A stretch of DNA of 20,000 nt from Candidatus Jordarchaeales archaeon. GTDB taxonomy: Archaea; Asgardarchaeota; Jordiarchaeia; Jordiarchaeales; Freyrarchaeaceae. The position numbers and the translations under genes were made by a program. Under the pieces are notes generated by a model, which ran no database searches, was not told the DNA's origin, and saw only the letters and a program-made list of their open reading frames with translations. Positions within the stretch are counted from its first letter, which is position 1, and every line of letters starts with the position of its first letter. The DNA is taken from contig JAWAHN010000001.1 of the NCBI GenBank assembly GCA_038889235.1, positions 1,090,803 to 1,110,802 of the forward strand. The letters run 5' to 3'. Below are positions 6,217-20,000 of this stretch, piece after piece.

Positions 6217-6220
6217 ACAC

Positions 6221-7246: not shown

Positions 7247-7248
7247 AC

Positions 7249-7566
7249 CTACTTTTTCACGACGCCGAGTAGCTTTCGGCCTTCCTCGACAAACGTCTCC
7301 CAGATCCTTTGAGCTTCTTCCGGGTTTTTCGAGGATGTGACCTCTGAAAGCAATTTTAGGAAGGCGCCTATCAACGGGTGCTTTATCAGGCGAAGCTCCT
7401 CAGTCATCACGTTAACATAGCTTACTAGAGCTGAGTCAACCTTGGTCAGCATGCCTGTTACGTCTTTCAAAACTAGTCCGCCATCCTCCATCTTGATATA
7501 AACTACGTCTTCCGCAACTTCCTTCTCGCTGTACCCCTCTTCAACCCTAACCTTAAATTCACACAA
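7249..7566 (-). CDS. CooT-like small protein with C-terminal extension
   Basis: N-terminus MCEFKVRVEEGYSEKEVAEDVVYIKMEDGGLVLKDVTGML resembles the MC-E... CooT nickel-binding family. About 40 extra C-terminal residues. Confidence 0.55.
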   Translation of the reverse strand: MCEFKVRVEEGYSEKEVAEDVVYIKMEDGGLVLKDVTGMLTKVDSALVSYVNVMTEELRLIKHPLIGAFLKLLSEVTSSKNPEEAQRIWETFVEEGRKLLGVVKK

Positions 7567-7680
7567 TCATAAACACCTCCACCAGTTAGGTTTTTGGGAG
7601 CTTGTTAAAAAAGTTTTTAACTTGAACATCCAACCCCATAATAGGACTCCCCTTCTCGTTACAAGTGGATAAGAGGGGGT

Positions 7681-8352: not shown

Positions 8353-9459
8353 CAAGTTGGCGTCGGGGTTCATTAGAACCTCTGGAGGAGACTTGAAAAA
8401 CGCTAGGCTCGCCACGGCACCCACTATGCCCCTCCTGCCTGTAACCTCGTAAACGCTAACCCCCACCTTCCTGGCGACGTCTTCTGCCTCTTTCACAGCG
8501 ACCTCCTTCTGCCTCACTCTCCTAGCGAAGTATTTCAGCTCGTCGGGAACCGTGAGTCCTCTTAGGACAGCAATTGCCGTGTTGTCAGAGTACGTCTCCT
8601 TTTCCACTACGCTTACAATCCTGTTAATTAGGGTTCCAACGCTGTCTGGGGGCACGGCGACCTCTATAAAGCTCGCCGAGTTTCCCGCGGTCTTAAACCT
8701 CACTTTCGGGTTCAGTACGACGACCTTATGACTTATACCTTCAGCCAATCCCTCAACGCTTTTCAGCAGTGATAGCGCCAGAGCCCAGGTGGCCCCAGAT
8801 TCAGAGTTATCGGTGTCATCTATTCCTATGGTTAGATGTTCAAGGCAATCCGTGACTATGACCCCCCTAACGTATCCCTCCATGGGCTCCACTTTCAGTT
8901 CTCTAACACCTCTGGCATACATCATGGTCTTAGTTAGTGCGTGGGCTGGCCCTCCAACGGCCCTAACGGTCTGAAAAACTCTCCCCTCCCGCACTTCAAC
9001 TTTCTCTACGGCCATAGAAACCCCCGGAGTAACATTTCTCTGCTCTCCCAGAACTGCGAGCTCCCTCAGAAACGTGCCCTCGCACCTCGCCTCCAGTATA
9101 GCTCCACCGGCCTTAGAATGCTTGAAAGCACAAAATGCAACCGCCCCCTCACTGCTACACTCGTGGTATATCTCGACCAAGCTGTTGTTGAAGTCAACGC
9201 TGGTGAATATCCTCTTACACACCTGGTAAGGGAATATCTCCTTCTCGGCGTAAGCATACCTCGCTGGTTTACGTCCAACGCTCCTCTCTACAACTGTAAC
9301 TATTCCCTCGTCCACGAGCCGCCGTATCCAGTCCTGCACTGTGCTTCTAGGCAGCCCGGTCTCTTCAACCACATCCTGCACCGTGAAGCTACCCTTTCTC
9401 AGAGTTAAGTTCTTAACAAGTCTCAGGCAGAGCACCCGTTTCCTCAGGACCTTTGACAC
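8347..9459 (-). CDS. HTH-domain protein fused to a 'GIDDTD' domain (TiaS-like / resembles methanogenesis marker 11)
   Basis: N-terminal winged HTH (FTVQDVVEETGLPRSTVQDWIRRLVDEGIVTVVERS). C-terminal LTIGIDDTDNSESGATWALALSLL ... SDNTAIAVLRG ... GRRGIVGAVASLAF. Confidence 0.6.
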   Translation of the reverse strand: MSKVLRKRVLCLRLVKNLTLRKGSFTVQDVVEETGLPRSTVQDWIRRLVDEGIVTVVERSVGRKPARYAYAEKEIFPYQVCKRIFTSVDFNNSLVEIYHECSSEGAVAFCAFKHSKAGGAILEARCEGTFLRELAVLGEQRNVTPGVSMAVEKVEVREGRVFQTVRAVGGPAHALTKTMMYARGVRELKVEPMEGYVRGVIVTDCLEHLTIGIDDTDNSESGATWALALSLLKSVEGLAEGISHKVVVLNPKVRFKTAGNSASFIEVAVPPDSVGTLINRIVSVVEKETYSDNTAIAVLRGLTVPDELKYFARRVRQKEVAVKEAEDVARKVGVSVYEVTGRRGIVGAVASLAFFKSPPEVLMNPDANLL

Positions 9460-9480
9460 CCTGCACTCCCACCTGAGCTC

Positions 9481-10533
9481 CTATTTTGCTCCGACAAGTG
9501 AGAAGACACTCTTCCAGTCTATTTTCCTCTCTCTCTTACACTCCGAATTTAGCGGGCATGAGGGACACACGGTGAAGAAAATGTTTTCTTCGCCCTTCCT
9601 TCTAAGAGCGCAAATATACTTTTCCTTAACTAGCTGGTTAAGCCTGTCTTTAAGCACGTCAGGCCCCCACTTAACGTGGAAACTTATTTCTTCAAACGTC
9701 TGCGGCTTCTTAATGATATACAAATACTCAAGAAGTATGGCGTTCTCTTCACCATAAAACTTTTTGAGCACGTCGAAGACAGTGTAAAACTTCTCTTCTG
9801 GAGCTTCTTCGGCTTTGATGGCTTTTTCCTCCATCTCCCTCTTCATTCGTTCGAGCATCGCCTGAACTTGGGCCGAAACTTCGCTCACCCGTTCTAAGGC
9901 TTTCTTCACGCTTTCCATTTCCCTCTTCTTTTCCTCTCTCTCCTTCAGAACAGCACTCGCTTTTTCCTCAATTTCTACTTCCTCCCTGAAAAGTTGCTCC
10001 AACTCGTCCAAGGCTTTCTCGTCACTTCTTACCTTTTCAGCAACCCTAACCTCCTCATCATACCTAGCTTCGAGCAAGCCCCTCAATTTCCTTAATTGGT
10101 CGTTTTTCGCAGTCAACTCCTCCTCTAGGTCTGAAACGCGTCTCCTAAGCTCCTGAGTCGCCTTACCCAGCACGCCACTATAGTACCTTGCCAGGGTCGT
10201 TTGTGCATCTCCCTCCCCCACCTGTAAGGCTACAACCCCTTCCTCGACGATCAAGTCTCTGAACACTTTTTCTTCAACCTCGCTTTCGACAACAATGCCG
10301 AAAACAAGCACGTTTTCACCTTTACCAACCGATCCAAAAAGAACACGCTCTCCGCCAATGTCAACACCCTCAACCCTTCCCATCCTAAAGTTGTAGCCCG
10401 AGAAGAATGCCGCAAGCTCCTCCTCTGAGAGCTTAGAATCGTGAAGGATAGCCTCCTCCAGAGAAAAGGTACCAGCGGAGTACCGCATTGAGAACACACC
10501 CAAGGGCACGTCTCCGCCCCTCCTACAAGTCAA
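9481..10533 (-). CDS. conserved-looking hypothetical protein with central coiled coil and C-terminal HTH/Cys motif
   Basis: 350-aa ORF. Long charged heptad region (ELRRRVSDLEEELTAKNDQLRKLR...). C-terminal FEEISFHVKWGPDVLKDRLNQLVKEKYI and CPSCPLNSEC. An internal ATG (MRYSAG...) may be the real start. Confidence 0.55.
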   Translation of the reverse strand: MTCRRGGDVPLGVFSMRYSAGTFSLEEAILHDSKLSEEELAAFFSGYNFRMGRVEGVDIGGERVLFGSVGKGENVLVFGIVVESEVEEKVFRDLIVEEGVVALQVGEGDAQTTLARYYSGVLGKATQELRRRVSDLEEELTAKNDQLRKLRGLLEARYDEEVRVAEKVRSDEKALDELEQLFREEVEIEEKASAVLKEREEKKREMESVKKALERVSEVSAQVQAMLERMKREMEEKAIKAEEAPEEKFYTVFDVLKKFYGEENAILLEYLYIIKKPQTFEEISFHVKWGPDVLKDRLNQLVKEKYICALRRKGEENIFFTVCPSCPLNSECKRERKIDWKSVFSLVGAK

Positions 10534-10609
10534 ATTATGAAACCTGTGTCGGAAAAGCTTTTCTTTAAAACTCAGCCCCGTTTCATCCTACAATACTTGA
10601 AGGTGTTGG

Positions 10610-11557
10610 CTAGTAGCGTAGCCCCTCGAGCAGGTACACGAATATCGATGCAGCTGTCAAATCCGCGGTGGCTCCTGGGTTTAGCCTGCCACCGCTGCTA
10701 TGCAACTCTTCATCAAGCATCCAACACAGCCTTCTCCCTTCAGGCGTGGATATTCCTCCCGCTTCCAGCACCTCCTTCGCCCTAACGCTAACATACTCTG
10801 CAGCTTTCGCCCCTGCCTTTCTGATTATAAGGGTATCAGGTTTCTCTGAAAGTATCCTCAGAAAAGTGTTCACTGTGGCGATGTTCACATCTCTTTCCTC
10901 CTCGAGGTATTTCTTGAAGCTTGGATATCCCAAGTCGAACACCGTACTCATGCCATTAACCCACTCAGCACTTATGGCGTCCCACCCCGCGCTTATGGCG
11001 AAAATGTCCTTCAGTGAGACTCCTTCTGAAACAATCTTCTCCCTAAAAGCTGGGTCGTTAACGTCGAACTTCTCCACCTCACCCAGCCCACCAGGCTTTA
11101 CTATACGTATTGCTTCGTAAACGTTCACCGCATCCTCCACGGTTGACCCATCGATAACCTTCACGACATTTTTTCTAAGGAGCGTTGAGGAAACCCCACC
11201 TGACAAAGCGAAGCACATTCCTGCAGCGGCAGAGAGGGGAGCGAATAAGAGTATTTCACCCAGGTTAGTGTTACCCCCCTTATGCCATCTAGAAGCGCAC
11301 TTAACCGCTTCGAGTACATAGTAACCCAAACTTATCTCCTTGACATCTATCTCTCCCCTTCCCGCCTTTCTCCCTCTCTCGGCAAGTCTCCCCATTGAAG
11401 GCCCTACCGCTACAGCGCCTGCTAAGAAGTGCTCGAACCGTGTATCGTGCGCGTCACGCAAGCGATGCACGTTACCAGGCTTCGGGTAGCCGCTCACTTC
11501 AAGTAGCATTGCCAGCGTCGCACATTTGGCAACGTATTCCTCAATGCTTTCCTCCAT
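10610..11557 (-). CDS. CitG-like / triphosphoribosyl-dephospho-CoA synthase family protein
   Basis: LLEVSGYPKPGNVHRLRDAHDTRFEHFL, GNTNLGEILLFAPLSAA, PDTLIIRKAGAKAAEYVS, LNPGATADLTAASIFVYLL are characteristic of the CitG/MdcB-like fold family. Confidence 0.8.
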   Translation of the reverse strand: MEESIEEYVAKCATLAMLLEVSGYPKPGNVHRLRDAHDTRFEHFLAGAVAVGPSMGRLAERGRKAGRGEIDVKEISLGYYVLEAVKCASRWHKGGNTNLGEILLFAPLSAAAGMCFALSGGVSSTLLRKNVVKVIDGSTVEDAVNVYEAIRIVKPGGLGEVEKFDVNDPAFREKIVSEGVSLKDIFAISAGWDAISAEWVNGMSTVFDLGYPSFKKYLEEERDVNIATVNTFLRILSEKPDTLIIRKAGAKAAEYVSVRAKEVLEAGGISTPEGRRLCWMLDEELHSSGGRLNPGATADLTAASIFVYLLEGLRY

Positions 11558-11973
11558 AGCTCCACCAGGAACTAAACTGGAATCGAGTGAAAATAAAATC
11601 TTTCGCGCCTATTACCAACAACGTGTTACGCGAAAACGAGGCGCCCAACTACCCGGGTCCACGTTGGTCGTCTGGGTCGAAATGTCACACTACTTGCCAG
11701 CTTCCATGAGAGAGTAATGAAAATGGCTGTTTTAGCTTACGAGTAATGTTATAGTGGAACAATGAGGCGTTGTCTCTAATAGGTTGAGTGACATGTGAAG
11801 TGTAATCGCCGCCTCTTAATGCAGACATTTTCGATTTATGTTAGCATGTGTTTTTTATTCGAAATGTATGGCGGATATGGTTACTCTCGTTTTTTATGTA
11901 AAAAGTTCTTATTTTATTTAATTTTCATTTATACATAACTTGCGTAGAAACGCGTCTGCAGGGTGGTTGGAGT

Positions 11974-12222
11974 ATGGCTCTACTAACTCTTGAAGAAAAA
12001 GGTGGGGTGCACGGTCTCCCCCCCTCAGCCGTAGAGGTGTTGAGCATTTTGAGGAGAGAGGGCCCACTGACTCCCAAAGACCTTTTTGGCAAGACGAGCC
12101 TTGCCCCAAGGACTGTGAGGTACGCTTTAAAGGTTTTACTCGACTCCAAGCTCGTTAAAAAGGTTCCAAACCTACACGACCTCCGCCAAAATCTCTACGT
12201 CGCGCTGGACCGACACCCCTAA
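11974..12222 (+). CDS. small winged-helix DNA-binding protein
   Basis: 82-aa ORF: SAVEVLSILRREGPLTPKDLFGKTSLAPRTVRYALKVLLDSKLVKKVPN. Confidence 0.6.
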   Translation: MALLTLEEKGGVHGLPPSAVEVLSILRREGPLTPKDLFGKTSLAPRTVRYALKVLLDSKLVKKVPNLHDLRQNLYVALDRHP

Positions 12223-12297
12223 AATGCGAGCTCCAAGTTGTAGCCCGCAGAACACCTCCAGAACACTTCAGTATAACTCACCTGTATAAAGGGGAGG

Positions 12298-12309
12298 GGC
12301 TTAAAAATG
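12298..12309 (+). promoter_or_regulatory. putative archaeal promoter for the kinase-like gene
   Basis: GGCTTAAAAATG, TATA-like element about 30-40 nt upstream of the TTG start at 12341. Confidence 0.35.
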
Positions 12310-12340
12310 GCTGTGAAACAGTACCTCAGAGGGACAGAGG

Positions 12341-12937
12341 TTGAAGTTCGTGGCGTCACTGGAAGGCGTTCACGGTTGTGGAAAGACCACGGTTTTCAGA
12401 CGCTTGCAGGAAATGAAGGCTGAATGGTTTTTCCTTCCAGAATTCATAGACCCACCTAGGTACCCCTTTGGCTCAAAGGACAAACAAATTGCGTTCAGAG
12501 CAGAGTTGTGGGTCCTTCAACAAATGTTGAAAAGGAGGACACTACTGGAACAAATTAACAGCGGAGTGGTTGTTTGCGACAGGAGCCCCATCTGTGTTGT
12601 GGCCTACGCGTACGCCCTCTGCTCCGACGAAGACTACCAGCTTATAAAGGACATCTACAGATCCGTGAACTGGGGGGAAGACGTAATATTCTACTTCGAG
12701 GAGACTGTTGAAAGCGTGCTTCCGAAAATAAGGATGAGAAAAGATAGGCCAAAAGAGTGGAACGAAGACGACACAGAATACATCGCAAAAATAATCGAGG
12801 GCTACGAAGAAGCCCTTAAACTGGCCAGCTGCCCCGTGCTGCGCATAAAGAACAGTGACGTGGAGAAAATCTCCTCCAAAATAGCAGTGGAAATCGAGAA
12901 AGCCTGCAGCTTCCTAAACACTTACAATTACCTCTAA
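12341..12937 (+). CDS. P-loop deoxynucleoside/thymidylate kinase-like protein
   Basis: Walker A ASLEGVHGCGKTTVFRRL; VVVCDRSPICVVAYAYAL; YFEETVESVLPKIRMRKDRPKEWNEDD lid-like segment. TTG start. Confidence 0.6.
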   Translation: MKFVASLEGVHGCGKTTVFRRLQEMKAEWFFLPEFIDPPRYPFGSKDKQIAFRAELWVLQQMLKRRTLLEQINSGVVVCDRSPICVVAYAYALCSDEDYQLIKDIYRSVNWGEDVIFYFEETVESVLPKIRMRKDRPKEWNEDDTEYIAKIIEGYEEALKLASCPVLRIKNSDVEKISSKIAVEIEKACSFLNTYNYL

Positions 12938-12995
12938 AAATCCCCCCTGAAGGAGATCATACCTTTCATTTTTATAAATAATTATTGTTGTCCCA

Positions 12996-13412
12996 CTAAC
13001 TTGCGGGTTTAAATGTTAAAATGGTTTTTCCGTTTTTCTCTAAGAATTCTGCTTCGACGTCCATACCTATCTGTATTTTTTCTGGTTTCTTTAAGTCGAA
13101 ACCTACTAGGCGTGCTGTTATCCTAGCCCCCTTCTCCAGTTCAACCACCCCGAAGGCGTACGGTTTTTCTCTTCCGTGTCCCTCAGCGATGAGCGGGGTT
13201 GGAGGAACGTGGACGATGGAGAACGTTACCAGTTTTCCTTTTCCCTTGAGCTCAATCCATTCTAAATCTGAGCTGCGGCAGTTCTTGCAGATGGGTCGCG
13301 GCGGTAAATTAATCACGCCACACTTTTTGCACTTTGCAGCCATGATCTTCCTTTTGTTTAGGAATTCCCTAAACTTGCTTACAGTAAACTCCATTGTGCT
13401 CAAAGCGCTCAC
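12996..13412 (-). CDS. DUF35 / zinc-ribbon plus OB-fold acyl-CoA-associated protein
   Basis: CKKCGVINLPPRPICKNCRSSDLEWIELKGKGKLVTFSIVHVPPTPL...PYAFGVVELEKGARITARLVG. Immediately downstream of the thiolase. Confidence 0.88.
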   Translation of the reverse strand: MSALSTMEFTVSKFREFLNKRKIMAAKCKKCGVINLPPRPICKNCRSSDLEWIELKGKGKLVTFSIVHVPPTPLIAEGHGREKPYAFGVVELEKGARITARLVGFDLKKPEKIQIGMDVEAEFLEKNGKTILTFKPAS

Positions 13413-14683
13413 CTCCTAAAAATGTGCACAGTGCAGCTTGCACCTGAACCGCCGACGTTGTGGGTTAACCCGACCTCAACGCCGGGAACCTGTCTTGCAC
13501 CCGCTTCTCCCCTAAGCTGATGCCATATCTCAACTACTTGCGCCACTCCGGTAGCTCCAACGGGGTGTCCCTTCGCCTTCAATCCCCCTGATGTATTAAT
13601 CGGTTTCTCTCCATTTCTCCTAGTTAGCCCTTCCTCAACTGCTTTTCCTCCTTCTCCTGGTTTGAAGAAACCTAAATCTTCTGTTGCAACTATCTCAGCT
13701 ATTGTAAAGCAGTCGTGTACCTCGGCTATCTCTATGTCCTTCGGCCTTAATCCTGCCATTTTGTAAGCTTTTTCGGCTGCAACCCTAGCCGCTCTTAGCG
13801 AAGTGATTTCTTCTCTATCGTGAAGGGCGAGCGAGTCGCTTCCTTGCCCAGTCCCGACCACGTGTATTGGTGTATCTGTAAACTTTCTTGCCACCTCCTC
13901 CGCTGCTAGTATTACGACTGCGGCTCCGTCGGTGATGGGACTGCAGTCGAAGAGTCTGAGGGGCCATGCTATAACTGGGTTTGCATCTGGATCACTTAGA
14001 AAGTCCATTTCATCCTTCCAGCTTGGAGCAGGGAGCCCCTTAGCTTTTGCCCGCTCAGCTCTAGCTTTCATTATGTCCCTTATTGTTGACTGGAATTGCG
14101 CCTTAGGATTCAGGGCCCCATTCTCGTGGTTTTTGATTCCAACCATTCTCAGTTGCTCAATTGTCGTTCCATATTTCCTCATGTGCGCGTTCGCTATTTC
14201 AGCATACAAACCTGGAAAAGTGGCTCCTGCGGAAAACTCATACACTGAATCAGCGGCTGAGGCTAACACGTCTGTTACCCTCGATGTTTCGAGGTTGGTC
14301 ATCTTTTCAACTCCCGCAACGCAGACTACGTCGTGCGCCCCGGAAGCCACTGCCAGTATTCCGAGCCTCAGGGCGGCACCACCGCTAGCGCAAGCATTCT
14401 CTACTCTCATAGCCGGGCCGGGAGTAATGCCGACTAGGTCAGCCATTAGGGGGCCGGTGTGCACCTGCCCTTCAAATATGTCGTTTGAAAAATTCCCCAG
14501 GAATAGCGCCTCTATCTCGCGTGTTTCTATCCCCTTATCCACGCTCTTGACCGCCTCGACGAAAGCCTCCACGAAAAGCTCCCTAGTTGTCTTGTCGGGA
14601 AAAGCTCCGAACTTACTCATTCCGGCACCAATTACTGCCACACCTCGCGCCAACTTCCCCAATGGGGGAACACCTCCCCGCAA
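13409..14683 (-). CDS. thiolase / acetyl-CoA C-acetyltransferase family
   Basis: VAVIGAGMSKFGAF, RVENACASGGAALRLG, EVHDCFTIAEI, KPINTSGGLKAKGHPVGATGVAQVVEIWHQL, GLTHNVGGSGASCTVHIF. Confidence 0.9.
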   Translation of the reverse strand: MRGGVPPLGKLARGVAVIGAGMSKFGAFPDKTTRELFVEAFVEAVKSVDKGIETREIEALFLGNFSNDIFEGQVHTGPLMADLVGITPGPAMRVENACASGGAALRLGILAVASGAHDVVCVAGVEKMTNLETSRVTDVLASAADSVYEFSAGATFPGLYAEIANAHMRKYGTTIEQLRMVGIKNHENGALNPKAQFQSTIRDIMKARAERAKAKGLPAPSWKDEMDFLSDPDANPVIAWPLRLFDCSPITDGAAVVILAAEEVARKFTDTPIHVVGTGQGSDSLALHDREEITSLRAARVAAEKAYKMAGLRPKDIEIAEVHDCFTIAEIVATEDLGFFKPGEGGKAVEEGLTRRNGEKPINTSGGLKAKGHPVGATGVAQVVEIWHQLRGEAGARQVPGVEVGLTHNVGGSGASCTVHIFRR

Positions 14684-14846
14684 ACGCCTACCATGGCTTT
14701 TTTTATTAACGACGCTTGCTCAAGTTACCGTTTATCTTTACAGCAGCCGAATACGAGCCGTTTGAACACTCAACCCCCTTCTATATAAATTTTCTAGCCA
14801 GCAATAGTTTGCTTGAACCTCAAGGGGGTAACAGTCAAAAGGGAAA

Positions 14847-14857
14847 AGCTTTATATT
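14847..14857 (+). promoter_or_regulatory. putative BRE/TATA box for the permuted 5S rRNA gene
   Basis: GGGAAAAGCTTTATATTC (14841-14858). TATA-like TTTATAT lies roughly 25-30 nt upstream of the start of the processing stem at 14880. Confidence 0.55.
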
Positions 14858-14879
14858 CGCTTTTTTGGTTGATAATTCC

Positions 14880-15039
14880 TGCTGGGCGCCACGGCGTGAA
14901 AGTCAAGCCCGCATGCGATTCGGCGAGTACTGCTGTGCGGGAGCCAGCGGGAAAGCCGAATGCTGGCGCTACGGCGCCGGCCATAGCATGCGGGGATATA
15001 CCCGTTCCCATTCCGAACACGGATCCGTGGCGTCCAGCA
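14880..15039 (+). ncRNA. precursor of circularly permuted 5S rRNA, enclosed by a 15-bp terminal processing helix
   Basis: 14880-14894 TGCTGGGCGCCACGG pairs with 15025-15039 CCGTGGCGTCCAGCA (15 consecutive pairs, one G-U). Inside it, 14895-14898 CGTG pairs with 15018-15021 CACG. Bulges are AAA (14899-14901) and GAT (15022-15024), a bulge-helix-bulge-like geometry. Confidence 0.8.
14901..15023 (+). rRNA. 5S rRNA, circularly permuted gene (3' half encoded upstream of 5' half); predicted 123-nt circular mature form
   Basis: 3' half first: AGTCAAGCCCGCATGC-GATTCGGCGAGTACTG...GGGAAAGCCGAAT-GCTGGCGC. Then TACG, then 5' half: GCGCCGGC-CATA-GCATGCGGG-GATATACCCGTTCCCATTCCGAACACGGA. Helix I 14962-14969/14974-14981 (8 bp), helix II 14986-14994/14908-14916 (9 bp), helix III CCGT 15002-15005/ACGG 15019-15022, helix V 14918-14924/14955-14961 (7 bp), helix IV GCTG 14932-14935/CAGC 14945-14948 plus GC/GC with a GGGA loop. 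Joining 15023 to 14901 gives the canonical CGGAAGUCAAG. Confidence 0.88.
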
Positions 15040-15042
15040 TGT

Positions 15043-15060
15043 GCTTTTCTTCTTGTTTTC
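15043..15060 (+). terminator. T-rich putative terminator downstream of 5S rRNA
   Basis: GCTTTTCTTCTTGTTTTC directly after the processing stem; pyrimidine/T-rich tracts are typical of archaeal termination. Confidence 0.5.
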
Positions 15061-15126
15061 CAAGGTAACTTTAATACAGGGTACCTATCCTTCTTTTTCT
15101 GTGAAGTGTTCGTTGGGGTTGTATAT

Positions 15127-16008
15127 ATGACAAAGCCCAGGCTTTACATAGATGAGAGCAGTCCTCCTATATCCGATAACCTCTACGAAAAGATAGCCGC
15201 GCACAGGAAGCTTTACAGGAAGCTTGTTTTCTCCGGCAAGGCTGTTAAGCGTCTTAGGGGGATTTTGCCCTCTTCAGAATTGGTGAGGATGCTCAGGGGG
15301 GGCGGGGGGAAGCTTAGGCGCTTCGATATAATGATCGAGTTGTATTGTGACGTTGAGACTGAAAGTAGAGTTAAGTCTCTGTACGACGAAGTGTGTAGCA
15401 CGTACCCGCCTCAAAAGTCGTCTATTAGTCTTGCGTCAGAAGGCGAGGAGCCTGCCCCCCTGAGGCTCGGGTTGAGCTGGGAAGACGTCTCGTTCGATGC
15501 TTGGGCACTTATAGAGCGTTTTTACAGCGTCATAGAGGAACCATTCTACGTTAACTTCGAATTCGAAGACGACGAGAAGGTGGTGTCCGCCGTAAATCTC
15601 TCAGTTCCCTTCGATGAGGAAAGGAGGCAGTTCTACCTCGTGGAGCTTGTCACCCCGTTCAGGGTGAAGTATCCTAGTGGGGAAGAAAGGTTACTGGGCA
15701 AGCTTTCGTCGCTTGTGGAGGAGGTAACGAGCAACCCAAATGTGACCCCCGAGCTTTTTGTGATCGGTCGAGGCGGCATGTGGAAGCCGCTGATAACCGT
15801 CGGCTGGTCTTTTAACGATGGCCGCTTACTCGTGAAGGTTCCAGAGTGGAATGGTAAGGGTGGAATAGAGTTCATCTTGGACCCCATTAACGGCAAGGTT
15901 CAACTGATCAAGGGAGATCTTAAGGTTGAAAAGGACGGTAAGCTGGGGAACGTGTCGCTCGATGCCGTTCAGTTTTTCGAGCTGGGGGGAGATGAGCTCT
16001 CAAGTTAG
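15127..16008 (+). CDS. hypothetical protein
   Basis: In-frame ATG at 15127 (MTKPRLYIDESSPPISDNLYEK...). The ORF-track start at 14716 would run through the 5S rRNA, so the ATG at 15127 is preferred. Confidence 0.6.
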   Translation: MTKPRLYIDESSPPISDNLYEKIAAHRKLYRKLVFSGKAVKRLRGILPSSELVRMLRGGGGKLRRFDIMIELYCDVETESRVKSLYDEVCSTYPPQKSSISLASEGEEPAPLRLGLSWEDVSFDAWALIERFYSVIEEPFYVNFEFEDDEKVVSAVNLSVPFDEERRQFYLVELVTPFRVKYPSGEERLLGKLSSLVEEVTSNPNVTPELFVIGRGGMWKPLITVGWSFNDGRLLVKVPEWNGKGGIEFILDPINGKVQLIKGDLKVEKDGKLGNVSLDAVQFFELGGDELSS

Positions 16009-16475
16009 TCTCGCTCAAACCAAGGCGTCTCGAGGTTCTCGTCGACGTCAACGCTCACCCACTCCCTTCCACTCCTGGGGTCTTGCTCGTGCAGGACTCT
16101 CACAAAGCTGATTGACTCGCATGCAAAGCAGTAGGCCTCCACGACGGTTCCCTCCAAAACGTGGAACCAGACCTCTCCGCCATCGATTATGCGCCCCCTC
16201 AACACCTCGCACTCGATGACCTCTCCATTTCTGCCCACGTGCTCCATGATGGTGTTCCTAACTATTTCGCGCGCTTCAAGGTAAATCCTCCCCGCATAGT
16301 TGTTGCTCTTAGGAAAAATGTTCGTGGAGAGCGTTGTATATCCTCCCTTGGAGGCAACGGTAAACCTAGCGGCCTCGTAGTATTCTCCTTCAACTCCAAA
16401 CTTTCCACTCAAAGCTAGGCGTATTCCCTCGCTCATCGAGGCGTGTCTCTCACCAACAGAGGGTAAGGCGGCCAC
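16005..16475 (-). CDS. hypothetical protein
   Basis: 156-aa ORF, convergent with and overlapping the previous gene by 4 nt. Internal start MSEGIRLALSGKF is possible. Confidence 0.5.
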   Translation of the reverse strand: MAALPSVGERHASMSEGIRLALSGKFGVEGEYYEAARFTVASKGGYTTLSTNIFPKSNNYAGRIYLEAREIVRNTIMEHVGRNGEVIECEVLRGRIIDGGEVWFHVLEGTVVEAYCFACESISFVRVLHEQDPRSGREWVSVDVDENLETPWFERD

Positions 16476-16587
16476 CCCCCTGAGACTAAACCGTAAGATT
16501 AAATTTAGACGGCGAGATACTTGTTTGCAAAATTCAGGCTTTAACTGTTACCGGCGCAAGTCGAAACACCCGTCTCGGTGATGAGCT

Positions 16588-18408
16588 TTGTCGCTTAGAC
16601 TGGAAAACATCGCCCGCCTTTACAACAAGCTCTTTACCCTCCCCTCCTCCCCTCTGCTACTATCGCTAGACATACTGGTCCACGCGGCCCTAGGAGCGCT
16701 CTTCTTCTTACTAATGGTTCCTCTCCACGGGTTAACAGTGGTCATGGACGGTGTGGCGTGGGGGCTTACATCGCTACTGCCCGCCTCAGCCGCTTCATGC
16801 CTGCTTTCATACATCGTAATTGGGAGGGAAGGGGTGAAGACGCTAAACTTAAGGCGTCTTACTGGGCTTGCAATGTTCTCCACGTTCTTTTGGGGTGTTC
16901 CCGCCGTTCTCGGTGTAGCGCTACGTAGCTGGGTGCCGGCAGCAGCCAGCTTAGGGTTGGCGTTCGGTGTAGCCTTAATGTCTTTCGCCAGAATGCTTAC
17001 AATCGAAGGTGTCCTCCCCCTAAGCTTTGCGAGGTCGTTTGCAGCGTCCTTAACACACCCCCTCCTCCTCATCGCTTTCCTCTTTTTCTCGAAGCTTGTC
17101 CCTTTGTCCATTTCTCTCGCCGGTAAACTTGTGGTCGTATGCGTGACCTTCACGCTCCTAGCACACTTCTACTTACTACTCATAGATGAAGCCGTCAGGC
17201 AGGAGTTGGGCATAGGAGGGTTACGCCTACTCCGCGGCTTCATGGCTGAATGGCTTTCGGATAACCCCCAACTACTAGAGGAGGCACTTGCCGAGATAGG
17301 CTCCGTGGAGGAACATAAGGTATTAGTGTTAAGCTTCACGCATCGTGATGACGTCGCCGCATCTTTAATTGTGCCAATGGTCCACCCGGGTCCCTTCAGA
17401 AAGGTTGGGGGGGCTACACTACCCTACATGGTCTCCAAATTGTTTGAGGAGCGGGTAGGCGGCGTAGCAGGCGTGGCTCACGGAGCTTCTACACATGCTC
17501 AGAACCCTGTTTCAAGGAGCGAGTCTGTTAAGCTGGCTGAGGAGGTCATTAGAGAAACCCTCTCCGGCAACTTTAAACTTGGTGTTCCGGTGAGCCCGCT
17601 GGTTCAAGCAAGCCGGGGGGGTGTGAGGGTAGGCTGTCAGCTTTTCGGTGAGCTGGCCTTGTTCACGGTAAGCCTTAAACCATGCGGCTACGACGACGTG
17701 CACCCGAGTGTGCTCGCGGAGCTATCGAGGGAGCTAGCGGGTGAGTGGGGTGGGGAATTTTTCTTGGTAGACGCTCACAGTGCCAGCCCGGGTCTCCTAG
17801 AACTAGACCCTCTAACTCCCGAGTCAGAGTTGACTAGGGAAATAATTGACGCAGCAAGGGAGGCGCTGAGGGAAGCTAAGAGACTTGCACTTCACAGTAA
17901 AGTTAGAGTTGGAGGAGGGCGGGCGAGCGTTGGAAACTTTGGGGTGAAAGAGGGGGTTGCGAGCGGCGGCGTCTTTTCACTCATAGTAGAGGTTGGCGGC
18001 AGCTTTGCCTGCTACGTGATCGTCGACGGGAACAACATGGTTCCCGGCCTTAGGGAAGAGGTGGAGCGGAGGGTGAAGGGTCTAGGAATCCAAGCGGTTG
18101 AAGTGATGACTAGCGATAGCCACGAGGCTAACGCGGTCTCCCTCAGCGAGCGCGGCTCTAACCCCATAGGACTCTCAGTCCCCTGGGACGCCGTGTTCGA
18201 AGCCGTACTCGAGTCCGTTGAAGCTGCAAAGCACCAGTTGAAGGAGGCCGAGCCTAAATACTTCATAAAGGAGGTTGCGTTGAAAGTGATTGGGGAGAGC
18301 TCCATGGAAAAGCTTTCACGATCAATCAGAAATGCGGCTCTCCTGGCGAGAAGAGCCATTATAATTCCGATTTTGTCGCTACTGGGGGTTTTTCTGCTCG
18401 CCTTCTAG
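16588..18408 (+). CDS. DUF2070 family predicted membrane protein
   Basis: 606 aa. Multiple N-terminal hydrophobic helices, then a soluble domain with LSFTHRDDVAASLIVPMVHPGPFRKVGGATLPYMVSKLF, VDAHSASPG and MTSDSHEANAVS, plus a C-terminal hydrophobic segment. Confidence 0.8.
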   Translation: MSLRLENIARLYNKLFTLPSSPLLLSLDILVHAALGALFFLLMVPLHGLTVVMDGVAWGLTSLLPASAASCLLSYIVIGREGVKTLNLRRLTGLAMFSTFFWGVPAVLGVALRSWVPAAASLGLAFGVALMSFARMLTIEGVLPLSFARSFAASLTHPLLLIAFLFFSKLVPLSISLAGKLVVVCVTFTLLAHFYLLLIDEAVRQELGIGGLRLLRGFMAEWLSDNPQLLEEALAEIGSVEEHKVLVLSFTHRDDVAASLIVPMVHPGPFRKVGGATLPYMVSKLFEERVGGVAGVAHGASTHAQNPVSRSESVKLAEEVIRETLSGNFKLGVPVSPLVQASRGGVRVGCQLFGELALFTVSLKPCGYDDVHPSVLAELSRELAGEWGGEFFLVDAHSASPGLLELDPLTPESELTREIIDAAREALREAKRLALHSKVRVGGGRASVGNFGVKEGVASGGVFSLIVEVGGSFACYVIVDGNNMVPGLREEVERRVKGLGIQAVEVMTSDSHEANAVSLSERGSNPIGLSVPWDAVFEAVLESVEAAKHQLKEAEPKYFIKEVALKVIGESSMEKLSRSIRNAALLARRAIIIPILSLLGVFLLAF

Positions 18409-18485
18409 GCTTCCGTAGTGCTGAGACTTAACGTGCTTTTCATTAGTAAAATTTTTAACTACTAATTGTTAGTCATTTAGCAACC

Positions 18486-18497
18486 AAAGCTTTTAAC
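18486..18497 (+). promoter_or_regulatory. putative promoter of the 2-oxoacid:ferredoxin oxidoreductase operon
   Basis: AAAGCTTTTAAC element, about 35-40 nt before the TTG start; GGAGG Shine-Dalgarno at 18516-18520. Confidence 0.45.
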
Positions 18498-18529
18498 ATT
18501 AGCAAGATGCAGAAAGGAGGAGCGCTTCT

Positions 18530-19093
18530 TTGAAGGATTTGTTGGAGGTCCGGTTCCACGGTAGAGGCGGACAAGGCGTCGTCACAGCCAGCCGCCTGCT
18601 AGCAGAAGCTGCCCTGTTTGAAGGTAAGTTCGTGCAGGGTTTCCCGTTGTTCGGCCCAGAAAGAGAAGGTGCTCCTGTGAAGGCTTTCACGAGGATAAGT
18701 AGCAGTCCCATTCGCGTGAGGACGCAGATATACACTCCGGACGTGGTTGTAGTGCTAGATCCAACGCTGGTCAAAGTTGAGAAGGTAACGGATGGCTTAA
18801 AGGATGGGGGCTGGCTTATAGTCAACACCGCCAAAAGTCCGATGGACGTTAAAAGCGAAGTGGGGGTTAGGGTTAAGGTTGCAACGGTTAACGCGACGAA
18901 AATAGCGTTGGAGGTTTTTGGCGCTCCGAGGGTTAACGCGCCTATACTCGGATCCTTAGTGAGAGCAGTTCAGTTAGTAAGTCTTGACTCTCTTTTGAAG
19001 GCCACGCGCTCCTCTTTTAGTGGGAGAGTGGCTGAGAGCAATGTTAGAGCTATTGAGCGCGCTTACAACGAAACAATGTTAGAGGAGGATTGA
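18530..19093 (+). CDS. porG: pyruvate/2-oxoacid:ferredoxin oxidoreductase gamma subunit
   Basis: LEVRFHGRGGQGVVTASRLLAEAALFEGKFVQGFPLFGPEREGAPVKAFTRIS; followed by delta and alpha subunits. Confidence 0.9.
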   Translation: MKDLLEVRFHGRGGQGVVTASRLLAEAALFEGKFVQGFPLFGPEREGAPVKAFTRISSSPIRVRTQIYTPDVVVVLDPTLVKVEKVTDGLKDGGWLIVNTAKSPMDVKSEVGVRVKVATVNATKIALEVFGAPRVNAPILGSLVRAVQLVSLDSLLKATRSSFSGRVAESNVRAIERAYNETMLEED

Positions 19094-19096
19094 AGT

Positions 19097-19384
19097 GTGA
19101 AGACGTGGGAAGATGTGCCCTTCGCCGGGTACATTTTTGAGCCCGGTAACACTGAAGGATACAAGACTGGCGACTGGAGATCGAGACAGAAACCCGTCAT
19201 AAACAAGGAGAAGTGCACTTTTTGCCTCTTGTGCTGGATATACTGTCCCGATGGCGCCATAATAAGGAAAGAGGGCGAGGTTGAAGTTGACTACTACCAC
19301 TGTAAGGGTTGCGGCATCTGCGCTTATGAGTGCCCCTCTGGTGCCATGAAAATGAAAAGCGAGTTTGAGGCAGATGAAGTATGA
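19097..19384 (+). CDS. porD: pyruvate/2-oxoacid:ferredoxin oxidoreductase delta subunit (2x 4Fe-4S)
   Basis: DWRSRQKPVINKEKCTFCLLCWIYCPDGAI...YHCKGCGICAYECPSGAMKM. Confidence 0.92.
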   Translation: MKTWEDVPFAGYIFEPGNTEGYKTGDWRSRQKPVINKEKCTFCLLCWIYCPDGAIIRKEGEVEVDYYHCKGCGICAYECPSGAMKMKSEFEADEV

Positions 19385-20000
19385 TGGCAAAAACTATTGT
19401 CGCCCTTAACGGTAACGAGGCTGCCGCTTACGCTGTCAAGCAGTGCAAGCCGGACGTCATAGCAGCCTACCCTATAACCCCCCAAACAGTGATAGTTGAA
19501 AGGCTAAGCGAGTACGTTGCGAACGGCGAGCTGGACGCCGAGTTCCTATCCGCCGAATCAGAACACTCCGCCATGAGCGCGTGCATAGGAGCGTCAGCCA
19601 TGGGGGCTAGAGTATACACTGCCACAGCCTCTCAAGGCCTAGCCCTAATGTACGAAATGTTGTTCGTAGCGTCCTCGTTCAGGCTGCCGATAGTTATGAG
19701 CGTCGCCAATAGAGCCCTGAACTCCCCCCTGAACATATGGAACGACATGAGCGACACCATGGGAGCTAGGGACTGCGGCTGGATACAGCTCTACAATGAA
19801 AACGCCCAAGAGGTCTACGACTTCACCATAATGGCATTCAAGATAGCTGAAGACCACAAGGTTCTTCTGCCGGTCATGGTGTGCCACGACGGCTTCGTCG
19901 TAAGCCACTCGACCGAGGGCGTCGAAGTTCTGAGCGACAGCGACGTAGACTCGTTCCTGCCGCCGAGAACCCCCCTCTACACGCTGGACGTTAACAAGCC
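19384..20000 (+). CDS. porA: pyruvate/2-oxoacid:ferredoxin oxidoreductase alpha subunit, 3' truncated by window edge
   Basis: Open frame from ATG 19384 to the end of the window: MAKTIVALNGNEAAAYAVKQCKPDVIAAYPITPQTVIVERLSEYV...ESEHSAMSACIGASAMGARVYTATASQGLALMYEMLF. Confidence 0.92.
   Translation, partial: MAKTIVALNGNEAAAYAVKQCKPDVIAAYPITPQTVIVERLSEYVANGELDAEFLSAESEHSAMSACIGASAMGARVYTATASQGLALMYEMLFVASSFRLPIVMSVANRALNSPLNIWNDMSDTMGARDCGWIQLYNENAQEVYDFTIMAFKIAEDHKVLLPVMVCHDGFVVSHSTEGVEVLSDSDVDSFLPPRTPLYTLDVNK

What the first reader, a model, noticed from the sequence alone, without database searches (positions are those of the whole stretch)
14901..15023. Circularly permuted 5S rRNA gene in an archaeon
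All conserved archaeal 5S blocks are present, but in swapped order. The segment AGUCAAGCCCGCAUGC...GAGUACUG...GGGAAAGCCGAAUGCUGGCGC is normally the 3' portion, yet it precedes GCGCCGGCCAUAGCAUGCGGGGAUAUACCCGUUCCCAUUCCGAACACGGA, normally the 5' portion. Re-joining 15023 to 14901 gives a full five-helix 5S fold, with helix II perfect over 9 bp and helix I over 8 bp including one G-U. Permuted 5S genes have been reported for some organelles, and permuted tRNA and SRP RNA genes for some archaea. I cannot confirm from here whether a permuted 5S is already described for this lineage.
Basis: partly seen in the sequence, partly recalled or inferred. Interest (0 to 1): 0.96.

Follow-up and report, generated by a model that had tools for sequence, protein, structure and literature searches.

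The report
Permuted 5S rRNA gene, Asgard archaea
This is a real and conserved 5S ribosomal RNA gene whose two halves are encoded in swapped order in several Asgard archaeal lineages; it is flanked by a tRNA-intron-type splicing signal that should cut the RNA out and join its ends into a circle, an arrangement I could not find described for any archaeal rRNA gene.

Summary
Window 14901-15023 (+) encodes the 3' part of a 5S rRNA, a UACG tetraloop, then the 5' part. Rfam finds no 5S at gathering score and only two partial hits. Re-joined, the sequence gives one full-length hit to a canonical 5S profile and folds as a 5S.

A 15-bp leader/trailer helix, a 4-bp helix and two 3-nt bulges form a bulge-helix-bulge (BHB) motif. 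Its standard cut sites fall at 14900|14901 and 15023|15024, and ligation restores the consensus CGGA-AGUC.

The contig is from a Jordarchaeia-type Asgard archaeon. The same arrangement occurs in 17 distinct loci (Jordarchaeia/Freyarchaeia, Njordarchaeota, one unnamed lineage), including the closed Ca. Freyarchaeum deiterrae genome. Both the 5S helices and the processing stem covary strongly.

Helix I is always closed by a hairpin cap, a 4-nt loop in 16 of 17 loci, so the mature RNA probably stays circular. That step is inferred.

No archaeal permuted 5S gene turned up in the searchable literature. The closest analogue is the permuted, circularised SRP RNA of Thermoproteus. Absence of a canonical 5S elsewhere in these genomes was not fully tested.

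The parts
14843..14857 (+). Archaeal promoter: purine-rich BRE-like GAAAAGC followed by the TATA box TTTATATT (14850-14857). This places the transcription start at about 14880, the first base of the leader helix.
   Evidence: Read from the sequence. A TTTA[TA]A box lies 46-66 nt upstream of the excised 5' end in all 17 homologous loci. Promoter function is inferred.
14880..14894 (+). Leader: 5' strand of the 15-bp outer processing helix (UGCUGGGCGCCACGG).
   Evidence: Pairs with 15025-15039 in all 15 positions and is part of the MFE fold. Covarying across lineages: 12 of 14 stem pairs have double changes, and 92.9% of cells are paired against 28-41% in slid controls.
14895..14898 (+). BHB central 4-bp helix, 5' strand (CGUG).
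   Evidence: Pairs with CACG at 15018-15021.
14899..14901 (+). 5' three-nucleotide bulge AAA. The predicted endonuclease cut is between 14900 and 14901.
   Evidence: BHB geometry. Cut position follows the standard rule of cutting after the second bulge nucleotide, derived from PMC4090602.
14901..15023 (+). Excised RNA: 123-nt circularly permuted 5S rRNA.
   Evidence: Covariance-model hit of 144.3 bits over exactly these coordinates (the window is one of the model's training sequences, so this sets the boundaries only). Partial Rfam hits. HMM test of re-joined against native order.
14901..14969 (+). 3' portion of the 5S (canonical positions ~51-119): loop B 3' side; helix II 3' strand 14908-14916; helix V 14918-14924 with 14955-14961; loop E; helix IV hairpin 14932-14948; helix I 3' strand 14962-14969.
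   Evidence: Alignment A3 and pair counts.
14970..14973 (+). UACG tetraloop capping helix I in the context C(UACG)G, at the place where a normal 5S has its free 5' and 3' ends.
   Evidence: Caps in the 14 loci with helix-I folds or sequence read out: UACG, CACG, CUCG, UUCG, GCAA, GUUA, and one 5-nt loop (UUUAU, L027). L036 and L038 read CUCG like L012.
14974..15023 (+). 5' portion of the 5S (canonical positions 1-50): helix I 5' strand 14974-14981; loop A CAUA; helix II 5' strand 14986-14994; helix III 15002-15007 with 15015-15022; loop C 15008-15014.
15018..15021 (+). BHB central helix, 3' strand (CACG). It overlaps the 3' strand of 5S helix III, so the BHB and helix III are alternative pairings before and after processing.
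   Evidence: Rfam helix III annotation.
15022..15024 (+). 3' three-nucleotide bulge GAU. The predicted cut is between 15023 and 15024.
   Evidence: Joining 15023 to 14901 gives ...CACGGA-AGUCAAGC..., which is the 5S consensus CGGAAGU.
15025..15039 (+). Trailer: 3' strand of the outer processing helix (CCGUGGCGUCCAGCA).
15045..15059 (+). T-runs (TTTT at 15045-15048 and at 15056-15059), a probable archaeal terminator.
   Evidence: Sequence. A TTTT run lies 17-55 nt after the excised RNA in all 17 loci. Terminator function is inferred.
13409..14662 (-). Upstream neighbour, transcribed divergently: thiolase (acetyl-CoA C-acetyltransferase-like). Context only.
15128..16008 (+). Downstream neighbour: 293-aa hypothetical protein. 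Gene callers extended it to 14869, straight through the 5S. Context only.
   Evidence: called as 293 aa in L007/L008.

Best explanation
This is the working 5S rRNA gene of a Jordarchaeia-type Asgard archaeon, encoded in circularly permuted order.

Proposed pathway:
1. The gene is its own transcription unit: TATA box at 14850, T-runs from 15045.
2. In the ~170-nt primary transcript, the 21-nt leader pairs with the trailer. This forms a 15-bp helix, then a 3-nt bulge, a 4-bp helix and a second 3-nt bulge, which together make a bulge-helix-bulge motif.
3. The tRNA-splicing endonuclease (EndA) cuts after the second nucleotide of each bulge, at 14900|14901 and 15023|15024.
4. The tRNA ligase RtcB joins A15023 to A14901. 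This closes the strand between helix III and loop B and recreates the normal 5S connectivity (...CACGGA-AGUCAAGC...).
5. The product is a 123-nt covalently closed circle in which helix I ends in a C(UACG)G tetraloop instead of free ends. Most probably it enters the ribosome in that circular form.

What is shown: the permuted order, the 5S fold with covariation, the BHB-shaped flanks with covariation, exact restoration of the consensus at the predicted junction in every homologue, and conservation across several Asgard lineages.

What is inferred: cleavage by EndA, ligation by RtcB, persistence of the circle, and that this is the only 5S gene.
For: 1. 5S identity. There are partial RF00001 hits in swapped order. 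The re-joined sequence gives one full-length hit to a canonical 5S profile, 59-83 bits in 11 of 11 homologues, while native order gives two half hits. The 5S fold is recovered.

2. Functional constraint on the 5S fold. Among 11 distinct MAFFT-aligned homologues, 93.4% of cells are paired, 20 of 36 pairs have changes on both sides, 0 of 500 shuffles reach the covariation score, and slid controls reach only 37-45%. With 14 sequences the figures are 94.8% paired and 24 of 36 pairs. The closest relative alone (92% identical, same synteny) shows four compensatory double changes, two of them in the flanking stem.

3. Processing motif. All 11 hand-dissected loci have an outer helix (10-15 bp in 10 of them; 5 bp plus a distal 10-11-bp helix in L012), a 4-nt central helix and two 3-nt bulges. 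The stem sequences differ completely between lineages but stay complementary: 92.9% paired, 12 of 14 pairs with double changes, slid controls 28-41%. Minimal leader/trailer constructs fold into the helix-bulge-helix shape in 17 of 17 loci.

4. Cut sites. Two BHB registers exist, with junctions GGA|AGU and GGAA|GU. In L019 compared with the window, the leader lost one nucleotide and the trailer gained one. In every locus the standard cut rule gives a ligated CGGAAGY with no gap or duplication.

5. Distribution. Nine Asgard MAGs were found by a permuted-order DNA pattern and seven JGI metagenome contigs by a second pattern. The covariance model found five further copies that were not in its training set: the closed genome of Ca. 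Freyarchaeum deiterrae (CP147778.1; L033 9260-9381, 122.7 bits), plus L034, L035, L036 and L038.

6. No canonical twin seen. A motif that is contiguous in both gene orders recovered Jord/Frey/Njord-type sequences only in permuted order. The five canonical hits are a clearly different sequence type.

7. Helix I cap. In the 14 loci read for it the cap is UACG, UUCG, CUCG, CACG, GCAA or GUUA, with one 5-nt exception (L027); L036 and L038 read CUCG like L012. This fits a retained structural element.

8. Lineage context. Freyarchaeia carry introns in 92-95% of tRNA genes, many at non-canonical positions (PMC11291895). That implies a busy splicing machinery with broad specificity, as in Thermoproteus, where the same machinery circularises a permuted SRP RNA (PMC4731332).
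Against: - There are no RNA data. Neither the cuts, the ligation junction nor the circular form has been observed.
- The BHB is of the relaxed kind. There is no inner helix beyond the bulges, and in five of the 11 dissected loci (L019, L013, L023, L016, L027) the fourth central pair is a purine-purine mismatch.
- The full-precursor MFE fold shows the outer helix but not the 4-bp central helix, which competes with local pairings.
- No complete genome could be scanned, so a second, canonical 5S in the same organism is not excluded.
- A stable tetraloop could also serve only to help the precursor fold.
- Current reviews state that archaeal 5S, unlike 16S and 23S, is not processed through circles (PMC12918454).
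Confidence: 0.7

Rival explanations
1. The gene and the BHB circularisation are as above, but the circle is only an intermediate. It is re-opened in the helix I loop and trimmed to give an ordinary linear 5S with the usual ends. Permuted tRNA genes of Cyanidioschyzon behave this way, as do the classical circular pre-16S and pre-23S intermediates.
For: Circular 16S and 23S precursors are normally re-linearised (PMC12918454; PMC8339473). Permuted tRNA transcripts are circularised and then cut to recover the standard form (PMC10085705).
Against: The linker is only 4 nt in 16 of 17 loci, and mostly an unusually stable tetraloop closing a G-C pair, such as C(UACG)G or C(UUCG)G. In Njord-type genes helix I is lengthened by 4-6 extra base pairs under the cap, which looks like a retained structure rather than a spacer to be removed. 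No nuclease or signal for such an opening is known, and 5S function does not need free ends. The permuted SRP RNA stays circular (PMC4731332).
Confidence: 0.15
2. The transcript is trimmed, by EndA or other nucleases, but never ligated. The ribosome then carries a linear, truly permuted 5S with a capped helix I and its ends at the helix III / loop B boundary. This would resemble the brown-algal mitochondrial 5S, which is permuted in the final product.
For: Permuted 5S molecules that stay permuted exist in stramenopile mitochondria (PMC4267664). Each nucleotide being present exactly once is also expected under this model.
Against: EndA cuts leave the 2',3'-cyclic phosphate and 5'-OH ends that RtcB joins (established knowledge; PMC4731332). 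The nick would leave the 3' strand of helix III held by only a few base pairs, although the RNA GC content of 0.52-0.70 suggests several of these lineages are thermophiles. The brown-algal break lies elsewhere (at the three-way junction) and has no BHB.
Confidence: 0.1
3. This is a decaying or silent rearranged copy, and a canonical 5S elsewhere in the genome does the work.
For: No complete genome was scanned, so a canonical copy cannot be formally excluded.
Against: Seventeen distinct copies from lineages as far apart as Jordarchaeia and Njordarchaeota keep every 5S helix through compensatory changes. They also keep loops A, C and E, their own promoter and terminator, and a covarying processing stem. 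A scan able to see both gene orders found no canonical copy of this sequence type. About 230 kb of related contigs contain no RF00001 hit.
Confidence: 0.04
4. It is an assembly or rearrangement artefact, or a chance resemblance.
For: None found.
Against: The same order occurs in independent assemblies from Logan, JGI, ENA and NCBI MAGs, and in a manually closed genome that was validated with long reads (PMC11291895). The covariance-model hits in loci outside its training set (L033-L036, L038) have E-values of 1e-22 to 3e-26.
Confidence: 0.01

Closest known systems
Permuted, circularised SRP RNA gene of Thermoproteus tenax / T. uzoniensis (Plagens et al. 2015, eLife, PMC4731332)
   Same: The gene encodes the 3' part before the 5' part. 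A short leader (23 nt there, ~21 nt here) pairs with the trailer into a BHB. The tRNA-splicing endonuclease and RtcB are the presumed machinery, and ligation restores a functionally important region. The product there is a stable circular RNA that is the functional form. The host lineage has exceptionally many tRNA introns, many of them non-canonical. Standard annotation could not find the gene.
   Different: The RNA is different (5S rRNA, a ribosome component, not SRP RNA). The phylum is different (Asgard, not Thermoproteota). The spread is much wider, covering at least three deep lineages and 17 sequence variants. Nothing here has been verified experimentally, whereas the SRP case has RNA-seq, Northern blots and in vitro EndA cleavage.
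Permuted mitochondrial 5S rRNA of brown algae and other stramenopiles (Valach et al. 2014, NAR, PMC4267664; Rfam mtPerm-5S)
   Same: It is a natural 5S rRNA in which helix I is closed as a hairpin and the termini lie elsewhere. It was also missed by the standard 5S model.
   Different: In the organelles the new ends lie at the three-way junction between the alpha and gamma domains, and the RNA stays permuted in the final product. There is no BHB and no ligation, and the sequences are highly derived. Here the break lies inside the beta domain (helix III / loop B), the sequence is otherwise a typical archaeal 5S, and a splicing motif is placed so that it rejoins the break.
Circularly permuted tRNA genes (Cyanidioschyzon merolae and others) and split tRNA genes of Nanoarchaeum
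   Same: The genes are in pieces or in permuted order and are repaired at the RNA level through BHB recognition and ligation (PMC4090602; PMC10085705).
   Different: The tRNA circles must be re-opened to give aminoacylatable ends. The intervening linker there is a processed spacer, not a stable tetraloop.
BHB-dependent circular pre-16S/23S rRNA, permuted 23S of Pyrococcus/Thermococcus, and circular 23S in archaeal ribosomes (PMC7758197; PMC12918454; bioRxiv 10.64898/2026.03.23.713588)
   Same: rRNA is excised at a BHB in a long processing stem and circularised. In some species a circular or permuted large-subunit rRNA sits in the mature ribosome.
   Different: In those cases the genes are collinear and the permutation or circle arises at the RNA level. 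Here the gene is permuted and RNA processing restores collinearity. 5S is explicitly described as not taking part in this pathway. Low-level circular reads of canonical 5S in Sulfolobus and Halobacterium could not be validated (PMC3326292).

Membership tests
5S rRNA (Rfam RF00001) | Three-domain fold: helix I, loop A, helices II/III with loops B/C, helices IV/V with loops D/E | tested here: met
   The re-joined sequence folds as a 5S. All five helices are supported by covariation in the permuted-order alignment: 93-95% of cells paired, 20-24 of 36 pairs with double changes, slid controls 37-45%.
5S rRNA (Rfam RF00001) | Conserved loop sequences: loop A CAUAG, loop C CCCAUUCCGAAC, loop E GAGUACUG / GGGAAA | tested here: met
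   Present in the window and invariant or nearly so across the 11 aligned homologues. The Freyarchaeum deiterrae branch has variant loop C and loop E.
5S rRNA (Rfam RF00001) | Collinear 5'-to-3' order, scoring above the family's gathering threshold (38 bits) | tested here: not met
   No hit at gathering in the window or in any permuted locus. The best partial hits are 21.5 and 19.3 bits. Canonical controls score 72-95 bits in the same runs. It is a 5S by homology and fold but falls outside the family model as curated.
5S rRNA (Rfam RF00001) | Incorporation into the large ribosomal subunit (binding uL18/uL5) | not testable with these tools
   Needs ribosome purification or a structure.
BHB-processed permuted non-coding RNA genes (type: Thermoproteus SRP RNA) | The gene encodes the 3' portion upstream of the 5' portion in one transcription unit | tested here: met
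   A single TATA box lies upstream and T-runs lie downstream in 17 of 17 loci.
BHB-processed permuted non-coding RNA genes (type: Thermoproteus SRP RNA) | Leader and trailer pair into a BHB: a 4-bp central helix flanked by 3-nt bulge(s), next to an extended helix | tested here: met
   11 of 11 dissected loci; MFE of minimal substrates, 17 of 17; covariation. Relaxed form: there is no inner helix, and the central helix is 3 bp plus a mismatch in five of the 11 dissected loci.
BHB-processed permuted non-coding RNA genes (type: Thermoproteus SRP RNA) | Ligation of the BHB-defined ends restores the canonical RNA sequence and structure | tested here: met
   The predicted junction gives CGGA-AGUC or CGGAA-GUY, which equals the consensus CGGAAGU, in all loci and in both BHB registers.
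BHB-processed permuted non-coding RNA genes (type: Thermoproteus SRP RNA) | Actual cleavage by the splicing endonuclease and circularisation by RtcB; a circular RNA detectable in cells | not testable with these tools
   No transcriptome or biochemical data were accessible.
Organellar permuted 5S (Rfam mtPerm-5S) | Helix I replaced by a terminal hairpin, with the RNA ends at the alpha/gamma junction; permuted in the mature product | tested here: not met
   Helix I is capped, but the break is at the helix III / loop B boundary in the beta domain and carries a BHB. Description of the organellar type is from PMC4267664.

The most novel reading that the evidence does not exclude
In Jordarchaeia/Freyarchaeia, Njordarchaeota and at least one further Asgard lineage, the only 5S rRNA gene is circularly permuted. 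On this reading the ribosome carries a covalently closed circular 5S rRNA with no free ends, made by the tRNA-splicing machinery. This would be the first natural rRNA gene in Archaea that needs RNA ligation to become functional. The state would be old, shared across class- or phylum-level Asgard lineages, with the BHB register drifting by one nucleotide while the product stays fixed.
Probability: 0.5. Interest if true: 0.9.

Novelty: new variant of a known kind. Interest (0 to 1): 0.86.

Why it matters
- **5S rRNA was thought to be simple and collinear.** It is one of the most conserved RNAs known, and its gene is described as easy to find in archaeal genomes. Current reviews say archaeal 5S, unlike 16S and 23S, is not processed through circles.
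- **Dependence on splicing enzymes.** A permuted 5S gene that relies on the tRNA-splicing endonuclease and ligase would make ribosome production depend on those enzymes. It would add a third class of RNA, after tRNA and SRP RNA, to BHB-repaired "genes in pieces".
- **A circular small rRNA.** It would probably place a circular small rRNA in the ribosome of Asgard archaea, the closest known relatives of eukaryotes.
- **Practical consequence for annotation.** Standard annotation (Rfam/Infernal at gathering score) misses these genes entirely. Genomes of these lineages will therefore be reported as lacking 5S and penalised in MAG quality standards, and gene callers place spurious ORFs over the locus. 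The covariance model built here, or the simple DNA patterns, fixes that.
- **A natural experiment.** The family also shows which changes 5S tolerates: a capped and lengthened helix I, and a break at the helix III / loop B boundary.

Tried and rejected
- **Rfam on the window.** At gathering score there was nothing. It is useful only as proof that pipelines miss the gene.
- **ARAGORN on the window.** No tRNA or tmRNA.
- **Thiolase synteny.** blastn of the locus against the thiolase-syntenic regions of more distant relatives found nothing (L002-L005 Ca. Freyarchaeum deiterrae, L009). The thiolase synteny holds only within Jordarchaeum-like genomes. The Freyarchaeum copy was found later through a different neighbour, a SPOUT methyltransferase.
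- **The two DNA patterns.** Both missed the Freyarchaeum deiterrae branch, because its loops C and E deviate. Their hit lists are therefore lower bounds. Of the 11 genome hits, Amycolatopsis (L014) is a chance match inside coding sequence, and Haloterrigena (L015) is two tandem canonical 5S genes.
- **Tandem duplication.** I considered a tandem pair of 5S genes read across their boundary. Rejected, because each half occurs once, the flanks are not 5S, and a 4-nt loop joins the halves.
- **A protein gene.** I considered ORF 14716-16008 and the called 379-aa product. Rejected, because relatives call the downstream gene at 293 aa, starting at the position equivalent to 15128, and the overlapping reading frame is simply a translation of the conserved RNA.
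- **Literature.** These term sets returned no archaeal permuted 5S gene: 'permuted 5S' + archaea; '5S rRNA' + bulge-helix-bulge + permuted; 'circular 5S rRNA'; Freyarchaeia + '5S rRNA'; Asgard + '5S rRNA' + 'circularly permuted'; 'circularly permuted 5S'.
- **Not available.** Marck & Grosjean 2003 (PMC1370505) is not held.
Full report
**1. The observation**

Window 14901-15023 (+) reads AGUCAAGCCCGCAUGC...GAGUACUG...GGGAAAGCCGAAUGCUGGCGC, then UACG, then GCGCCGGCCAUAGCAUGCGGGGAUAUACCCGUUCCCAUUCCGAACACGGA. So the 3' two-thirds of a 5S rRNA is followed by a four-base loop and then the 5' third.

- Rfam at gathering score reports nothing in the whole window.
- In E-value mode it reports two sub-threshold RF00001 matches. 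One scores 21.5 bits and is carried by the 3' part. The other scores 19.3 bits and matches model 27-51 at 15000-15024.
Native order gives two partial hits (profile 52-120, then 8-54). The re-joined sequence gives one hit over profile 9-120 at 79 bits. The same holds for ten homologues.

**2.

The flanking sequence has four elements:
- Bases 14880-14894 pair with 15025-15039 in a 15-bp helix.
- CGUG (14895-14898) pairs with CACG (15018-15021).
- AAA (14899-14901) is a 3-nt bulge on the 5' strand.
- GAU (15022-15024) is a 3-nt bulge on the 3' strand.

Together these form a bulge-helix-bulge motif, the substrate of the archaeal tRNA-splicing endonuclease. The motif is defined as a 4-bp helix flanked by 3-nt bulges. 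In pre-tRNA, positions 32-35 form the central helix and the cut falls after position 37, which is after the second bulge nucleotide (PMC4090602).

Joining the ends gives ...CCGAACACGGA-AGUCAAGC..., the 5S consensus CGGAAGU at the helix III / loop B boundary.

A TATA box (TTTATATT, 14850-14857) sits where it would start transcription at about 14880, the first base of the leader helix. T-runs begin at 15045. The locus is therefore a self-contained unit of about 170 nt.

**3. Whose genome**

- The window is a Logan assembly contig (SRR21619497, 24.9 kb).
- The adjacent thiolase has its best named relatives in Candidatus Freyarchaeota / Freyarchaeum / Jordarchaeia, at 72-77% identity, with unnamed hits up to 96%.
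- The nearest DNA homologues of the locus are in MAGs named Ca. Jordarchaeum sp. and Jordarchaeales.
- These taxa belong to the Asgard kingdom Promethearchaeati.

**4. Relatives**

- *Closest relative.* The syntenic locus (L006/L007/L008, also L011) is 92% identical and differs by four compensatory double changes. One is in helix I, one in helix II and two in the flanking stem.
- *GTDB genome scan.* A scan for the 5S motifs in permuted order gave 11 hits. Nine are permuted 5S genes in Asgard MAGs: Jordarchaeia, Jordarchaeales, Freyarchaeota, Njordarchaeota, "Promethearchaeati", one labelled Thermoproteota whose 5S is nearly identical to the window's, and two unnamed. The other two are a chance match and a tandem pair of canonical genes.
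- *JGI metagenome scan.* A motif that is contiguous in both gene orders gave 12 hits. Seven are permuted, all of the Jord/Frey/Njord sequence types. Five are canonical, of a clearly different sequence type, and Rfam scores four of them at 72-94 bits. So no canonical-order copy of this 5S type turned up.
- *Covariance model.* A model built from 11 distinct permuted sequences then found copies outside its training set:
  - the closed 3.58-Mb genome of Ca. Freyarchaeum deiterrae (L033 9260-9381, 122.7 bits);
  - L034 and L035, next to a SPOUT methyltransferase gene;
  - L036 and L038, relatives of the unnamed L012 lineage. The neighbouring DHH protein of that lineage is closest, at ~35%, to Hodarchaeales and Heimdall-group proteins.

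In all there are 17 distinct loci. Every one has a TATA box 46-66 nt upstream, a T-run 17-55 nt downstream, and a leader/trailer that folds into helix-bulge-helix.

**5. Constraint**

*5S helices.* On the MAFFT alignment of 11 sequences, the five helices written in permuted order have these properties:
- 93.4% of cells are paired.
- 20 of 36 pairs changed on both sides.
- No shuffle in 500 reached the covariation score.
- Slid controls reach only 37-45% paired.

With 14 sequences the figures are 94.8% paired and 24 of 36 pairs (that alignment is fitted to the model and leans towards it).

*Processing stem.* The outer-helix sequences are unrelated between lineages yet always complementary. Examples are GCUGGGCGCCACGG, GGCGUCGUUG, CCAGCACUCUGGG, CCCGGCACCCCGGA and AUGGCACCUCCUAGG. 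Overall 92.9% of cells are paired, 12 of 14 pairs have double changes, and slid controls reach 28-41%.

*Two BHB registers.*
- Type A: central helix CGUG/CACG, junction GGA|AGU.
- Type B: central helix CYGG (CCGA in L023) paired with ACGG or CCGG, junction GGAA|GU.
- In L019, whose 5S body is ~93% identical to the window's, the leader has one base fewer and the trailer one base more. Both predicted cuts move one position in the same direction, and the ligated product is unchanged.

In all loci the standard cut rule gives CGGAAGY with neither gap nor duplication. This internal consistency is the strongest in-silico argument that the BHB defines the ends.

**6. Mechanism**

- *Shown.* A functional, conserved 5S gene in permuted order. 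A covarying BHB-shaped processing stem. Ends that restore the consensus on ligation.
- *Inferred from established knowledge.* EndA cuts both bulges and leaves a 2',3'-cyclic phosphate and a 5'-OH. RtcB then joins them and circularises the excised RNA. This was demonstrated for the permuted SRP RNA of Thermoproteus tenax (PMC4731332).
- *Lineage context.* Freyarchaeia carry introns in 92-95% of their tRNA genes, often at non-canonical positions (PMC11291895). That implies an abundant splicing system with relaxed specificity, the same circumstance as in Thermoproteus.
- *A structural switch.* The 3' strand of the central helix (CACG, 15018-15021) overlaps the 3' strand of 5S helix III (15019-15022). 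The leader therefore stands in for the 5' strand of helix III until it is removed.

**7. Fate of the circle**

Where a normal 5S has its ends, these genes have a cap of four bases in 16 of 17 cases. In the 14 loci read for it the caps are C(UACG)G, C(UUCG)G, CUCG, CACG, GCAA and GUUA, with one 5-nt loop in L027. In Njord-type genes helix I is 4-6 bp longer under the cap. L036 and L038 read CUCG like L012.

Stable tetraloops and an extended helix look like permanent structure rather than a spacer to be excised, and 5S needs no free ends. I therefore favour a mature circular 5S (about 0.5-0.55), over re-linearisation (0.15) or an unligated permuted linear form (0.1). None of this can be settled without RNA data.

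**8. Comparison with what is known**

- *Permuted SRP RNA of Thermoproteus.* This is the closest system: same logic and same presumed enzymes, but a different RNA and phylum.
- *Stramenopile mitochondrial 5S.* Permuted 5S molecules are known only there. The break lies at the three-way junction, there is no BHB, and the RNA stays permuted (PMC4267664). A 2023 survey of natural RNA permutations cites a single reference for permuted 5S rRNAs, presumably this organellar work (PMC10085705).
- *Archaeal 16S and 23S.* These are excised at BHBs and circularised. The 23S is permuted at the RNA level in Thermococcales, and circular 23S has been reported in ribosomes. The same literature states that 5S is not processed this way (PMC12918454; PMC7758197).
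- *Circular reads of canonical 5S.* Low-level reads in Sulfolobus and Halobacterium could not be validated (PMC3326292).
- *Literature searches.* Seven full-text searches found no archaeal permuted 5S gene. The paper on the closed Freyarchaeum genome does not mention 5S.

I rate this a new variant of a known kind. The mechanism class is known, but its application to an rRNA gene, in Asgard archaea and on this phylogenetic scale, appears to be undescribed.

**9. Limits**

- There are no expression data.
- No whole genome was scanned for a canonical second copy.
- The BHB is of the relaxed type.
- The DNA patterns are biased towards particular loop sequences, so the distribution is a lower bound.
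- Taxon labels of MAGs are as deposited.
- The relation between the three lineages is not resolved. A single origin and repeated origin at a favoured site both remain possible.

Noticed in passing
window 14869-16008 (= L001 5550-6689); L018 7112-7420; L024 303-611: Gene callers and ORF lists run protein ORFs straight through the permuted 5S: a 379-aa call in the window's contig and a 102-aa ORF in Frey-type loci. The window's downstream gene most likely starts at ATG 15128 (293 aa), as called in L007/L008.
   Followed up: partly
L012 4600-4790; L036 5350-5520 (-); L038 5395-5570 (-): In the unnamed L012 lineage the processing stem has three parts: a distal 10-11-bp helix, a small covarying hairpin in the trailer closed by UGCG, and then a 4-5-bp helix next to the CCGG/CCGG central helix. 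The function of the extra hairpin is unknown.
   Followed up: partly
L013 1795-1923; L023 7357-7485 (-); L016 3375-3505; L027 907-1040: In Njord-type permuted 5S genes helix I is lengthened by 4-6 bp beyond the usual end. It has one bulged U and a variable cap (GUUA, GCAA, UUCG, or a 5-nt UUUAU loop).
   Followed up: partly
L033 9260-9381 (CP147778.1); L035 9250-9371: The Ca. Freyarchaeum deiterrae branch has unusual 5S loops: CGGAAAAA instead of GGGAAA on the 3' side of loop E, and CUCUUACCGAAC in loop C. This is why both DNA patterns missed it.
   Followed up: no
L019 3908-4082 and L030 1945-2120, compared with window 14880-15039: Within otherwise near-identical Jordarchaeales 5S genes the BHB register differs by one nucleotide. 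The leader is one base shorter and the trailer one base longer, so the break point moves from GGA|AGU to GGAA|GU with no change in the ligated product.
   Followed up: yes
L033 8244-11353; L034 6059-11251; L035 7875-11349: In the Frey lineage the permuted 5S lies in a long gene-free gap between rpoB and a PF02598 SPOUT 'RNA uridine N3 methyltransferase' gene, which is followed by uL23. The remaining ~1.5 kb of that gap was not examined for further RNAs.
   Followed up: no
L025 888-1120 (-); L026 ~150-380 (-): In canonical 5S genes from another archaeal group, a ~104-nt tRNA (probably intron-containing) follows within about 10 nt, suggesting a 5S-tRNA co-transcript.
   Followed up: no
L015 1489-1855 (-): Haloterrigena salina has two tandem canonical 5S copies downstream of the 23S, with an N in the second. 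This was the only biological false positive of the permuted-order pattern.
   Followed up: yes
window 1-13400 and 16000-20000 (annotated through L001): The rest of the window carries several gene sets: a GCHY-1 / DUF6513-pterin-binding / flavoprotein cluster that looks like pterin cofactor biosynthesis, CitG, a TiaS-like protein, CooT, a DUF2070 membrane protein, and a four-subunit 2-oxoacid:ferredoxin oxidoreductase. This synteny is conserved in L006-L009.
   Followed up: no
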